Positions 27,401-30,400 of a stretch of 64,000 nucleotides of DNA are shown one piece after another (position 1 is the first letter of the stretch; every line of letters starts with the position of its first letter). The stretch is from Escherichia coli (lineage in GTDB: Bacteria > Pseudomonadota > Gammaproteobacteria > Enterobacterales > Enterobacteriaceae). The position numbers were made by a program. The stretch lies in NCBI RefSeq assembly GCF_024223415.1, contig NZ_CP100500.1, one strand, 5' to 3'.

Positions 27401-30400
27401 GAAGCCACGGTCAGCCGCAGTAAACACGCCTTCATGCTCGCCCCACGACGTTGACGGTAAAATAACATCCGCCGCCGACGCGGTTTTGGTCATAAAGATG
27501 TCCTGAACGATAACCAGTTCCAGATCTTCAAAGGCTTTACGTACTGCCGACAGCTCCGCGTCAGTTTGTAGCGGATCTTCGCCCATAATGTACGCGGCAC
27601 GCACTTCGCCATGCGCTGCGCGGTGCGGCAGCTCGCTGATGCGATAACCGGTATGAGCAGGCAGGCTTTCCACGCCCCAGGCTTTGGCGAATTTCTCGCG
27701 GTTAGCCGGATCTTTCACGTACTGGTATCCCGGATACGTATCCGGCAGCGCGCCCATATCGCAGGCACCCTGCACGTTGTTCTGACCACGAACCGGGTTT
27801 ACACCCGCATGCGGCTTACCGAGGTTACCGGTCAGCATCGCGAGGCTGGTCAGAGAACGCACGGTTTCCACGCCCTGGTAGAACTGGGTTACACCCATGC
27901 CCCACAGGATGGCGGCGCTTTTCGCCTGGGCATACATCCGTGCCGCCTGACGAATCTCACTGGCGCTGACGCCGGTGATATCTTCAACCGACTCCGGCGT
28001 GTAGCCTTCAACGATTTTACGATACTCTTCAAAGCCTTCTGTACGTGAAGCGACGAACGCTTTGTCGTACAGATTTTCTTCAATAATGACATGGCCCATC
28101 GCATTCAACAGCGCGATGTTCGAGCCGTTTTTCAGTGCAATGTGCATGTCAGCAATGCGCGCGGTTTCAATTTTGCGCGGATCGCAGACGATAATTTTCG
28201 CCCCGTTACGTTTAGCGTTAATTACGTGATTCGCCACGATTGGGTGGGAATCCGCCGGGTTGTACCCGAAAACGAACACTAAATCGGTATTATCAATTTC
28301 GTTAATAGCATTGCTCATTGCGCCATTACCGACCGATTGGTGCAGACCTGCAACCGATGGGCCGTGTCAGACACGAGCGCAGCAGTCAACGTTATTGGTA
28401 CCAATAACGGCGCGCGCAAATTTTTGCATTACATAGTTGGTTTCGTTACCCGTACCACGCGAGGAGCCGGTCGTCTGGATGGCATCCGGACCGTACTTCT
28501 CTTTGATGGCGCTCAGGCGCTCGGCAACGTAATTCAGTGCCTCATCCCAGGAAACAGGTTCGAGTTTGCCGCCACGCTGGCGACGGATCATGGGGGTTTT
28601 CAGGCGCGGGGTCAGGATCTGGGTATCGTTAATGAAATCCCAGCCATAATAACCCTTCAGACACAGGGTACCCTGGTTGGTTTTCCCCTGCGCTGCCTCC
28701 GCCCGGACGATTTTGCCGTTATCGACGACCAGGTTGATTTTGCAACCTGATGCGCAATAGGGGCAAACCGTGACGACTTTTTTCATCGGTCTCGCTCCAG
28801 TTAATCAAATCACGCATACGCGCTCTCGACTACAGTATGCATCTTTTATGCCACATTTTATTTGGGGTCATTCCCTGATATTACGGGCACTATTTATTCA
28901 AAACTCTGACGAAAAACAGGCTGTCGTCAGTTTTGACGTGACGAAACGAAATACCGCGTGACGGCCATCACGCGGCAGACATTTTATTTTTTCTCGACGA
29001 CGGGAGCCGCCTGATACCCGCCGCCCAGCGATTTCATCAACTGAATGCTTTGGATCACCCGGCGGCTGTCCAGCATCAGTAATGACATCTCTTCGGCAAG
29101 CACCGGCAACCGGGCTTCGGTAGCCTGTAAGCGGCTGGTTAAGCCGCGCTGATAGGCGGCCTCGGCAGCGCGCTGGGTGAAGCGCGTTGCTTCCACGCGT
29201 TCAGCCTGCATCTCTCGCTCGTCGTTGAGCGTTTGCAGACGCGTGCCGTTGACGGCAACGTCACGCACCGCGTTCAGTACTGACTGGTTGTAACGTTCAA
29301 TCATCATGTTGCTGGCGGCGCGCGTGCCTTCGAGATTGGCATTCAACCGTCCACCGTCAAACAGCGGCAATTTCAGACCCGGGATAAAGTTGAACTGGCG
29401 ACTGGTTTTTTTGAATAAGGTATCCAGGTGGATGGCATCAAGGCCGAAAAACGCTTTGATATCAAAGCTCGGGTAGAACAGCGCCCGCGCGGAATCCACC
29501 TGATCTAATGACGCCTGAACATACCAGCGCATGGCTTGCAGATCCGGGCGTCTGGCGAGCAACTCATAAGAGAGCGTCGCCGGAATGCCGGTCTGTACTT
29601 GCGGTAATGCCACCGCTTTGATCTCCGGCATATCGCTGGCTCCCGCGCCAATCAATGCACGCAGGGATTCTCGCGTTTCGGTGATTTGCCCTTTAACGGC
29701 AGCAATTTGTTTATCGACCGCCAGAATCTGTGCCCGCGCGCCGTGGAAAGGCACTTGCGCTTCCAGACCGTGCGCCACTTTACTTTGGTGCGCTTTCACC
29801 GCGTAATCAATCACATCGCGAGTTTGTTCTAACAGATCGAGCATCTGATAGCTGGCCTGCATACTGTAATAAAGCTGCGCTACGCCCGTGGTCAGCGATA
29901 GCTCTACTGCTGCGGTTTCTGCCAGCGCGGCATTATGCGCGCCAATGGCGGCGGCAACCGCTGAGCGATGCACACCCCACAAATCAAGATCCAGTCCGGC
30001 AAACAAACCTACTGTGGCTTCCGTATAGTACGGCCCGTCCATACCCAGTGCTGGCGCATCCATCGCATAAGGGCTTAAAAAGCCGTTCGCCGAGACGCGT
30101 TGGCGGTTGAGCATCCCTAACGCTGCGACCTGTAATTGTGAACCGGCATCTAACAAATCGGCCTGGGACTGCGCTTTTTCTTCCCGCAGTTTCGCTTCGG
30201 CGAGGGTGTGTGAACCACTTAGCGTCCGTTGGATCAGCGCATCCAGCTGCGGGTCATTGAGTTGTTTCCACCACTGCGCCTGCGGCCAGCCGGAGCTGGC
30301 AAGATGAATATCATCGGCCAGTTTGATTTGTTCCGGTTTGAGCTGTTGATTAGGCGCAGAATCCTTGCGTACCAGGGCACAGCCGGAAATCAGCGTCGTG

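What the first reader, a model, noticed from the sequence alone, without database searches (positions are those of the whole stretch)
28324..28369. Selenocysteine recoding site in fdhF (UGA plus SECIS) that splits the gene in naive ORF calls
The six-frame track reports fdhF as two ORFs (28367..28786 and 26639..28318) because of the in-frame TGA at 28367-28369. The 40 nt immediately 3' form the classical SECIS hairpin, so this is one 715-aa selenoprotein. It is well known, but automated annotation often truncates it. It also means the strain needs selABCD for formate hydrogenlyase activity.
Basis: partly seen in the sequence, partly recalled or inferred. Interest (0 to 1): 0.4.

Follow-up and report, generated by a model that had tools for sequence, protein, structure and literature searches.

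The report
Selenocysteine recoding site in E. coli fdhF
This is the textbook stop-codon-plus-hairpin signal that makes E. coli insert selenocysteine at residue 140 of formate dehydrogenase H; it is present and intact here, identical to the laboratory strain K-12, and therefore ordinary.

Summary
On the minus strand an in-frame TGA (28369-28367) is codon 140 of a single 716-codon frame (28786..26639). It splits a naive ORF call into pieces of 139 aa and 559 aa. The 55 nt around it (28374-28320) match Rfam SECIS_2 at 87.1 bits (gathering score 70, E = 1e-18).

The joined protein is 100% identical over 715 residues to crystallised E. coli formate dehydrogenase H, with the unknown residue X (selenocysteine) at position 140. 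Other solved homologues carry Cys or Sec in that column.

The gene differs from K-12 MG1655 fdhF by 12 synonymous bases, and the SECIS is identical. The 55-mer is unchanged in 5411 of 5420 E. coli records.

Across 116 distinct orthologue segments, the apical codons GCA-GGT-CTG never vary. Their synonymous entropy is 0.12 bits, against 1.13 bits in the flanks. Two stem pairs change by compensatory substitutions.

The claim that annotation often truncates the gene holds for many public gene calls: both fragments occur as separate proteins on at least 1000 contigs each. RefSeq annotates one CDS. The selABCD requirement is textbook knowledge and cannot be tested in this window.

Verdict: already known, low interest. 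Seen in passing: an IS1397-bounded inversion of about 31.8 kb that carries fdhF, and an amber codon in yjcO.

The parts
26639..28786 (-). fdhF coding sequence (formate dehydrogenase H): 715 residues including Sec140, plus the terminal TAA
   Evidence: One frame with a single internal TGA. 100% identical over 1-715 to PDB 1AA6/1FDI/1FDO/2IV2/7Z0T. 12 synonymous differences from MG1655 b4079. Annotated as a single fdhF CDS in RefSeq neighbours.
28367..28369 (-). UGA codon 140, recoded as selenocysteine
   Evidence: Read directly. It aligns with X140 of crystallised FDH-H and with Cys or X in other solved formate dehydrogenases. TGA was required by the search pattern, so its presence in all 116 orthologue segments is by selection and is not evidence of conservation.
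28320..28374 (-). Full match to Rfam RF01988 SECIS_2 (55 nt, UGA included)
   Evidence: 87.1 bits against a gathering score of 70, model positions 1-55 of 55. Identical in 5411 of 5420 E. coli records.
28330..28369 (-). Canonical 40-nt fdhF SECIS, numbered from the U of UGA (nt 1-40)
   Evidence: Coordinates computed. The definition of the 40-nt element comes from PMC8659212.
28339..28355 (-). Minimal 17-nt apical stem-loop (nt 15-31, GGUUGCAGGUCUGCACC), the SelB-binding part: bulged U17 = 28353, loop G23 = 28347, U24 = 28346
   Evidence: Positions. The required features (nt 15-31, 11 nt from UGA, bulged U17, loop G23/U24) are from PMC8659212. Codons GCA GGT CTG are invariant in 116 distinct orthologue segments. 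Compensatory pairs occur at G15-C31 and U18-A29.
28838..28853 (-). Sigma-54-type -24/-12 promoter element, TGGCATAAAAGATGCA (GG-N10-GC); its 3' end lies 51 nt upstream of the fdhF ATG
   Evidence: It is the only match to TGGCAYN5WTGCW in the 64-kb window on either strand (0.59 expected window-wide, so the location is what carries weight). This stretch is identical in MG1655. FhlA is a sigma-54-dependent activator of fdhF (PMC11291172, PMC11841067). Function here is inferred.
26604..26625 (-). Terminator-like hairpin with a T-run, 13 nt after the fdhF stop codon
   Evidence: Consensus scan: 9-pair stem, 6 G-C pairs, tail TTTTTTATCC. Function is inferred.

Best explanation
Window 28786..26639 (minus strand) is the E. 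coli fdhF gene for formate dehydrogenase H, the formate-oxidising subunit of formate hydrogenlyase. Its codon 140 is UGA. The mRNA directly 3' of it folds into the bacterial selenocysteine insertion sequence (SECIS). The established mechanism for this exact sequence is as follows. The elongation factor SelB, carrying Sec-tRNA(Sec) and GTP, binds the apical 17-nt stem-loop (bulged U17, loop G23/U24) while the hairpin is still outside the ribosome. This tethers the Sec ternary complex 11 nt from the UGA and gives it priority over release factor 2, so selenocysteine is inserted and translation continues to residue 715. Sec140 then sits in the active site with the molybdopterin cofactor. What is shown here: the sequence anatomy, its identity to the experimentally studied K-12 element and to the crystallised protein, and RNA-level purifying selection with compensatory changes across orthologues. 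What is inferred from the literature and not tested here: SelB binding, Sec insertion and enzyme activity in this strain.
For: An in-frame TGA sits within one 716-codon frame. Rfam SECIS_2 scores 87.1 bits against a gathering score of 70 and is the only such hit in the window. The protein is identical to PDB FDH-H chains, with X at 140. Homologous solved enzymes carry Cys (7qv7_S, 7bkb_D, 9wxb_B) or X (9t1s_L) in that column, in the motif CAR[VLI]-[C/X]-H. The SECIS is base-for-base identical to MG1655, and the gene differs from MG1655 only by 12 synonymous changes. The 55-mer is unchanged in 5411 of 5420 E. coli records. In 116 distinct orthologue segments from Enterobacterales, Pasteurellaceae and a few metagenome-assembled genomes (MAGs), mean synonymous codon entropy is 0.12 bits in the apical codons and 0.37 bits over SECIS codons +1..+13, against 1.13 bits in 47 flanking codons. 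With U17 bulged, pair 23-34 is U-A in 35 sequences and A-U in 11 with none unpaired, and pair 20-36 is G-C in 33 and U-A in 10. 90.9% of cells are paired, against 22-47% when partners are slid, and 0 of 500 shuffles reach the observed covariation score. Literature: the fdhF fragment 130-179 with UGA140 and the SECIS gives about 40% recoding in vivo and in vitro, dependent on SECIS and SelB (PMC4513850). The defining SECIS features are in PMC8659212.
Against: There is nothing substantive. The hairpin's folding energy is not better than shuffled sequence (z = -0.71). The minimum-energy fold and the Rfam consensus bulge U18 rather than U17; the two registers are energetically equivalent, and covariation favours bulged U17. 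The orthologue set was retrieved with a pattern that fixes CCARV-UGA-HGP, so the conservation of the first 8 nt after UGA is partly by construction. The orthologue sequences are phylogenetically related, so the shuffle control overstates significance. The trans-acting genes selA, selB, selC and selD are not in the window, so their presence in this strain is assumed.
Confidence: 0.98

Rival explanations
1. The TGA is a genuine stop. The locus would then be two separate genes, or a pseudogene broken by a nonsense mutation.
For: A mechanical ORF call gives two ORFs. Many public gene callers list the two pieces as separate proteins. The neighbouring gene yjcO really does carry a strain-specific nonsense codon, so nonsense mutations do occur in this strain.
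Against: The TGA is present in K-12 and in essentially all of the 5419 E. coli genomes with the locus. The joined frame is identical to the crystallised 715-residue protein with Sec at 140. The column is Cys or Sec in homologues. A SECIS scoring above the curated threshold follows directly. The second 'ORF' would start at Met157, inside a conserved domain, with no separate start signals.
Confidence: 0.01
2. The hairpin is only a by-product of the conserved peptide HGPSVAGLHQSVGNG, and the UGA is read by ordinary near-cognate suppression rather than through a SECIS.
For: The peptide is strongly conserved. The folding energy is not exceptional. Low SECIS-independent read-through of about 5-8% exists (PMC4513850).
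Against: Synonymous sites, which the peptide does not constrain, are frozen in the apical stem-loop. GCA, GGT and CTG are each a single codon in 111-116 of 116 sequences, whereas flanking Ala, Gly and Val codons use 3-4 codons. The Val145 codon changes GTT to GTA together with an amino-acid replacement, His149 CAC to Leu CTC, and this restores the pair; here the RNA pairing dictates the protein change and not the reverse. Experiments on this exact sequence show that recoding depends on the SECIS (PMC4513850).
Confidence: 0.01
3. The cis element is intact but not functional in this particular strain, because a trans factor (selA, selB, selC or selD) is defective. FdhF would then be truncated at residue 139 and formate hydrogenlyase would be inactive.
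For: No sel gene and no tRNA gene lies in the window (and the annotated counterparts), so their state is unknown. This strain shows signs of IS activity and carries a nonsense mutation nearby.
Against: Only synonymous differences from K-12 in fdhF, and an unchanged SECIS, indicate continuing purifying selection on the full-length selenoprotein. From general knowledge, not tested here, the sel genes are core genes in E. coli.
Confidence: 0.03

Closest known systems
E. coli K-12 fdhF (b4079) Sec140 UGA with the fdhF SECIS; Rfam RF01988 SECIS_2
   Same: The 58 nt compared around the UGA are base-for-base identical and the protein is identical. The flanking genes (yjcO, mdtP), the -24/-12 promoter element and the 197-nt upstream region (2 differences) are the same.
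   Different: There are 12 synonymous substitutions elsewhere in the gene. In this window the locus lies inside an IS1397-bounded segment that is inverted relative to related genomes. Nothing differs in the recoding element.
Crystallised formate dehydrogenase H (PDB 1AA6, 1FDI, 1FDO, 2IV2, 7Z0T)
   Same: Identical over residues 1-715, with the unknown residue (Sec) at position 140.
   Different: None at the protein level.
fdhF-type SECIS of Pasteurellaceae (Haemophilus, Aggregatibacter, Actinobacillus, Pasteurella loci L003, L018, L024, L037, L046 and others)
   Same: Same position after UGA, same invariant apical GCAGGUCUGC with the GGUC loop, and the same bulged U.
   Different: The upper stem carries compensatory changes, G15-C31 to U-A and U18-A29 to A-U. 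These are coupled to the His149-Gln150 to Leu-Lys replacement in the protein.
Cys-type formate dehydrogenases (for example T. kivui HDCR FdhF 7qv7_S, 7bkb_D, 9wxb_B/6tg9_A)
   Same: Same fold family and same active-site motif CAR-x-[C/U]-H.
   Different: They carry Cys in place of Sec in the deposited chains. By inference they have no UGA and no SECIS requirement.

Membership tests
Bacterial SECIS, fdhF type (Rfam RF01988 SECIS_2) | Covariance-model score at or above the curated gathering threshold | tested here: met
   87.1 bits against 70, full-length match 1-55 of 55, E = 1.1e-18. Also found in the whole-window gathering scan.
Bacterial SECIS, fdhF type (Rfam RF01988 SECIS_2) | An in-frame UGA directly 5' of the hairpin, inside an otherwise open reading frame | tested here: met
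   TGA at 28369-28367 is codon 140 of a 716-codon frame.
Bacterial SECIS, fdhF type (Rfam RF01988 SECIS_2) | A 17-nt apical stem-loop at nt 15-31 (11 nt from UGA) with bulged U17 and loop G23/U24 (PMC8659212) | tested here: met
   GGUUGCAGGUCUGCACC at 28355-28339; U17 = 28353, G23 = 28347, U24 = 28346. The fold shows the stem, a single bulged U and the GGUC loop. The MFE and the Rfam consensus place the bulge at U18, which is an equivalent register; covariation supports U17.
Bacterial SECIS, fdhF type (Rfam RF01988 SECIS_2) | RNA-level conservation or covariation beyond what the protein requires | tested here: met
   Synonymous entropy is 0.12 bits in the apical codons and 1.13 bits in the flanks, over 116 distinct segments. 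There are two compensatory pairs, and 0 of 500 shuffles reach the observed covariation score. Caveat: the sequences are related, and the retrieval pattern fixed the first 8 nt after UGA.
Bacterial SECIS, fdhF type (Rfam RF01988 SECIS_2) | SelB binding and SelB/SECIS-dependent Sec insertion | not testable with these tools
   Shown experimentally for the identical K-12 sequence (PMC4513850). Inferred here from sequence identity.
Formate dehydrogenase H (FdhF), molybdopterin oxidoreductase of the DMSO-reductase family | Full-length homology to characterised FDH-H | tested here: met
   Identical over 1-715 to PDB 1AA6 and four further entries, 1669.8 bits.
Formate dehydrogenase H (FdhF), molybdopterin oxidoreductase of the DMSO-reductase family | Catalytic Sec/Cys followed by His in the CAR-x-[U/C]-H motif, and the N-terminal Cys cluster for the [4Fe-4S] centre | tested here: met
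   CCARV-U140-H141 aligns with CARL-C-H, CARI-C-H and CARL-X-H in solved homologues. C8, C11, C15 and C42 are present in the translation. Their role as cluster ligands is from my own knowledge of the FDH-H structure.
Formate dehydrogenase H (FdhF), molybdopterin oxidoreductase of the DMSO-reductase family | Chromosomal context of E. coli fdhF (yjcO - fdhF - mdtP; monocistronic, sigma-54/FhlA-dependent) | tested here: met
   Same neighbours as in RefSeq genomes and MG1655. A -24/-12 element lies at 28838-28853. Terminator-like hairpins lie on both sides. FhlA dependence is from the literature (PMC11291172, PMC11841067) and was not tested.
Selenoprotein synthesis system (selA, selB, selC, selD) | Presence of the trans-acting genes in the same genome | not testable with these tools
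   Only 64 kb is available. There is no tRNA gene in it and no sel gene among the annotated counterparts retrieved for window 1-24300 and about 24268-49000.

The most novel reading that the evidence does not exclude
Nothing about the recoding site itself is new. The most novel reading the data allow is comparative. In the fdhF SECIS the RNA pairing constrains the protein: in Pasteurellaceae the U18-A29 to A18-U29 and G15-C31 to U15-A31 swaps are achieved by a synonymous Val145/Ser144 codon change on the 5' arm and a non-synonymous His149-Gln150 to Leu-Lys change on the 3' arm. The covariation also supports the biochemically defined register (U17 bulged) over the register drawn in the Rfam consensus. 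Separately, in this strain fdhF lies on a segment of about 31.8 kb between two identical inverted IS1397 copies. That segment is flipped relative to every one of 5426 complete E. coli genomes, which could be a real strain-specific inversion.
Probability: 0.5. Interest if true: 0.15.

Novelty: already known. Interest (0 to 1): 0.08.

Why it matters
For annotation, the two naive ORFs must be joined into one 715-residue selenoprotein with a translation exception at codon 140. Otherwise the catalytic residue and 16 further residues are lost, and the strain is wrongly scored as having a broken fdhF. Public protein collections do contain the split pieces on a large scale. Biologically it means that formate hydrogenlyase activity in this strain depends on selenium supply and on the sel genes. 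Neither point is new: this is the founding example of bacterial selenocysteine recoding.

Tried and rejected
(1) Thermodynamic significance. The 53-nt fold has the expected shape, but its energy is not better than dinucleotide shuffles (z = -0.71), so I do not use folding energy as evidence.

(2) The PDB sequence search rejected the letter U (error). I repeated it with X.

(3) Rfam SECIS_3 also hit the site, but at 35.8 bits against a gathering score of 63. I rejected it in favour of SECIS_2.

(4) The Rfam consensus register (U17 paired, U18 bulged) leaves 11 sequences unpaired at that position. The published register (U17 bulged) turns these into 11 compensatory A-U pairs, so I adopted it.

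(5) One of the 120 genome hits to the degenerate pattern, L067 (Asticcacaulis), has no FdhF homology by tblastn. It is a chance match and I left it out of the structural alignment.

(6) I looked for the trans-acting genes in the window. There is no tRNA(Sec) or any other tRNA and no sel gene in the annotated counterparts retrieved, so the selABCD statement could not be tested.

(7) I did not run the large protein-homology searches, structure prediction or a metagenome scan. Identity to a crystallised protein makes them unnecessary.

Full report
**1. The observation**

On the minus strand the sequence reads ...GCT CGT GTC TGA CAC GGC CCA TCG GTT GCA GGT CTG CAC CAA TCG GTC GGT AAT GGC GCA ATG..., with TGA at 28369-28367.

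Translating 28786..26639 in one frame gives 716 codons, with one internal stop at codon 140 and the terminal stop. That is a 715-residue product if codon 140 is decoded. The second naive ORF begins at Met157. A naive call therefore drops residues 140-156, and the 48-nt 'gap' between the ORFs is the recoding signal itself.

**2. Is it more than chance?**

A scan of 4 kb around the site against all Rfam families gives a full-length match to RF01988 (SECIS_2) at 28374-28320. The score is 87.1 bits, against a gathering score of 70, with E = 1.1e-18. It is also the only SECIS hit in a gathering-threshold scan of the whole window.

The 53-nt RNA folds into the expected long hairpin with a GGUC tetraloop and a single bulged U. 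The folding energy is not exceptional, however: -17.5 kcal/mol, z = -0.71, and 38 of 200 shuffles fold at least as well. Thermodynamics alone would not single the site out. The evidence comes from the model match, conservation and covariation.

**3. What the gene is**

With X at position 140, the joined protein is identical over residues 1-715 to the formate dehydrogenase H chain of PDB entries 1AA6, 1FDI, 1FDO, 2IV2 and 7Z0T. That chain also has X at 140.

A search with residues 101-205 shows what solved homologues carry in that column:
- Cys in 7qv7_S (CARL-C-HAPTVAGL), 7bkb_D (CARI-C-HGPSVAGL) and 9wxb_B (CARV-C-HSPT).
- X in 9t1s_L (CARL-X-HSATV).

So the UGA corresponds to the catalytic Sec/Cys position and not to a stop in homologues.

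The locus matches 5419 of 5426 complete E. coli genomes. RefSeq annotates a single 2148-nt fdhF CDS between yjcO and mdtP. Against K-12 MG1655 b4079 the gene has 12 differences, all synonymous, and the 58 nt around the UGA are identical.

**4. Conservation and covariation**

Within E. coli the 55-mer is unchanged in 5411 of 5420 records.

For wider comparison I scanned one genome per species with a degenerate pattern encoding CCARV-UGA-HGP. This pattern leaves the hairpin beyond nt 11 unconstrained. They come from Enterobacterales (Citrobacter, Enterobacter, Klebsiella, Salmonella, Hafnia, Proteus, Providencia, Morganella, Serratia, Budvicia, Edwardsiella and others), Pasteurellaceae (Haemophilus, Aggregatibacter, Actinobacillus, Pasteurella and others) and a few MAGs. 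One hit (L067, Asticcacaulis) has no FdhF homology and is a chance match.

The hits give 46 distinct 55-mers (45 after dropping L067). Together with the window's own 55-mer, which was not among them, these make the 46-row alignment A1.

In 116 distinct 243-nt segments the amino acids around the site are conserved, but synonymous usage is not uniform:
- The apical codons Ala146 GCA, Gly147 GGT and Leu148 CTG each use a single codon.
- Flanking Ala, Gly and Val codons use 3-4 codons.
- Mean synonymous entropy is 0.12 bits in the apical codons, 0.37 bits over SECIS codons +1..+13, and 1.13 bits over 47 flanking codons.

This is selection on the RNA, not on the peptide.

Counting pairs on A1 gives the following:
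- With the Rfam consensus structure, 89.7% of cells are paired and one pair is compensatory.
- With the biochemically defined register (U17 bulged, U18 paired with A29), 90.9% are paired and two pairs are compensatory. G15-C31 becomes U-A in 10 sequences. U18-A29 becomes A-U in 11 sequences, with none unpaired.
- In that register, 0 of 500 shuffles reach the observed covariation score, and only 22-47% of cells pair when partners are slid.

The A18-U29 swap pairs a synonymous GTT to GTA change (Val145) with a non-synonymous CAC to CTC change (His149 to Leu).

Two caveats apply. The sequences are phylogenetically related, so the shuffle control is generous. The retrieval pattern also fixed the first 8 nt after the UGA.

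**5. Mechanism**

The defining features of the fdhF SECIS in the literature are:
- a 40-nt element directly 3' of the UGA;
- a 17-nt apical stem-loop at nt 15-31, 11 nt from the UGA;
- a bulged U17;
- G23 and U24 in the loop, with U17 and G23 as the SelB contacts (PMC8659212).

All are present: nt 15-31 = 28355-28339, U17 = 28353, G23 = 28347, U24 = 28346.

For this exact sequence (fdhF codons 130-179 or 130-156), recoding was about 40% in vivo and in vitro. SECIS-independent read-through in vivo was about 5-8%. [quoted passage not shown]

I take that mechanism over by sequence identity. It was not tested here.

**6. Surroundings**

fdhF appears to be monocistronic.
- The only match in the window to the sigma-54 consensus TGGCAYN5WTGCW lies at 28853-28838 on the fdhF strand, with its 3' end 51 nt upstream of the ATG. 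Window-wide, 0.59 matches are expected by chance, so it is the position that is informative. This fits the reported FhlA (sigma-54-dependent activator) control of fdhF (PMC11291172, PMC11841067).
- Terminator-like hairpins lie after mdtP (28977-28952) and 13 nt after the fdhF stop (26625-26604).
- No tRNA gene is in the window, and the annotated counterparts retrieved list no sel gene. The remark that the strain needs selABCD is correct textbook knowledge but cannot be examined here.

**7. The annotation claim**

The exact 139-aa and 559-aa fragments are both present in the public protein collection, each on at least 1000 contigs (the counting limit). Their 90% clusters have 2374 and 11377 members. 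These include entries named as formate dehydrogenase from Escherichia, Klebsiella, Citrobacter, Raoultella and Enterobacter, and both fragments have UniRef entries. Split calls are therefore common. RefSeq annotates the gene whole.

**8. Verdict**

Both the observation and the interpretation are correct. The element is the founding example of bacterial selenocysteine recoding and does not deviate from the K-12 reference. It is already known and of low interest, apart from the practical point that the two ORFs must be merged.

**9. Seen in passing**

- The window contains two IS1397 copies that are 100% complementary (24285-25741 and 57498-58954).
- In the six closest complete genomes, window 1-24300 matches one strand while window 24268-58987 matches the other.
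- No genome out of 5426 covers the junction region 16000-40000 in one place. The roughly 31.8 kb between the IS copies, fdhF included, is therefore inverted here, either by IS-mediated recombination or by misassembly.
- yjcO carries a strain-specific amber codon: Gln75 CAG to TAG at 26323-26321. It is one of only four differences from strain NCTC9112 across 15.7 kb.

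Noticed in passing
window 24285-25741 and 57498-58954 (segment between them: 25742-57497): Two IS1397 (IS3-family) copies lie in inverted orientation and are 100% complementary over 1457 nt. The roughly 31.8 kb between them (yjcO, fdhF, mdtPON, ytcA, yjcS, a sugar-utilisation cluster, phn genes) is inverted relative to the six closest complete E. coli genomes, which carry both IS copies. None of 5426 complete genomes covers window 16000-40000 in one collinear place. This is either a strain-specific IS-mediated inversion or an assembly error across the repeat.
   Followed up: partly
window 26321-26323 (yjcO, 25856-26545, minus strand): yjcO (Sel1-repeat protein, 229 aa in RefSeq and K-12) has an in-frame amber codon at codon 75, CAG (Gln) to TAG. 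It is a single-base difference from strain NCTC9112, and only 3 other differences occur in 15.7 kb. It is probably a recent inactivating mutation or a sequencing error.
   Followed up: partly
window 25781-25851 (+) and 57401-57477 (-): Rfam naRNA4 (REP-derived nucleoid-associated RNA) matches lie directly beside the inner ends of both IS1397 copies, at 75.2 and 106.3 bits. From my own knowledge, IS1397 inserts into REP/BIME palindromic units, which would explain the association. Not examined further.
   Followed up: no
window 18391-18556 (-): Full-length match to the enterobacterial sRNA family STnc630 (RF02052, 178.1 bits). It overlaps the small pmrR gene and lies in the pmrB/proP intergenic area as annotated in strain KV7.
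   Followed up: no
window about 28895-28950 (minus strand), upstream of the fdhF promoter: The sequence holds repeated TTTCGTCA / TGACGA motifs, including the palindrome CGTCA-AAAC-TGACG, about 50-110 nt upstream of the sigma-54 -24/-12 element. This stretch is identical in MG1655.
   Followed up: no
loci L073 and L106 (genome-contig hits): Two more distant FdhF homologues keep the apical GCAGGUCUGC core of the SECIS unchanged although the lower stem differs. They are 67% and 71% identical to the window protein by tblastn; L073 is a contig labelled as a Desulfovibrio desulfuricans MAG. The taxonomic label of the MAG contig was not checked.
   Followed up: no
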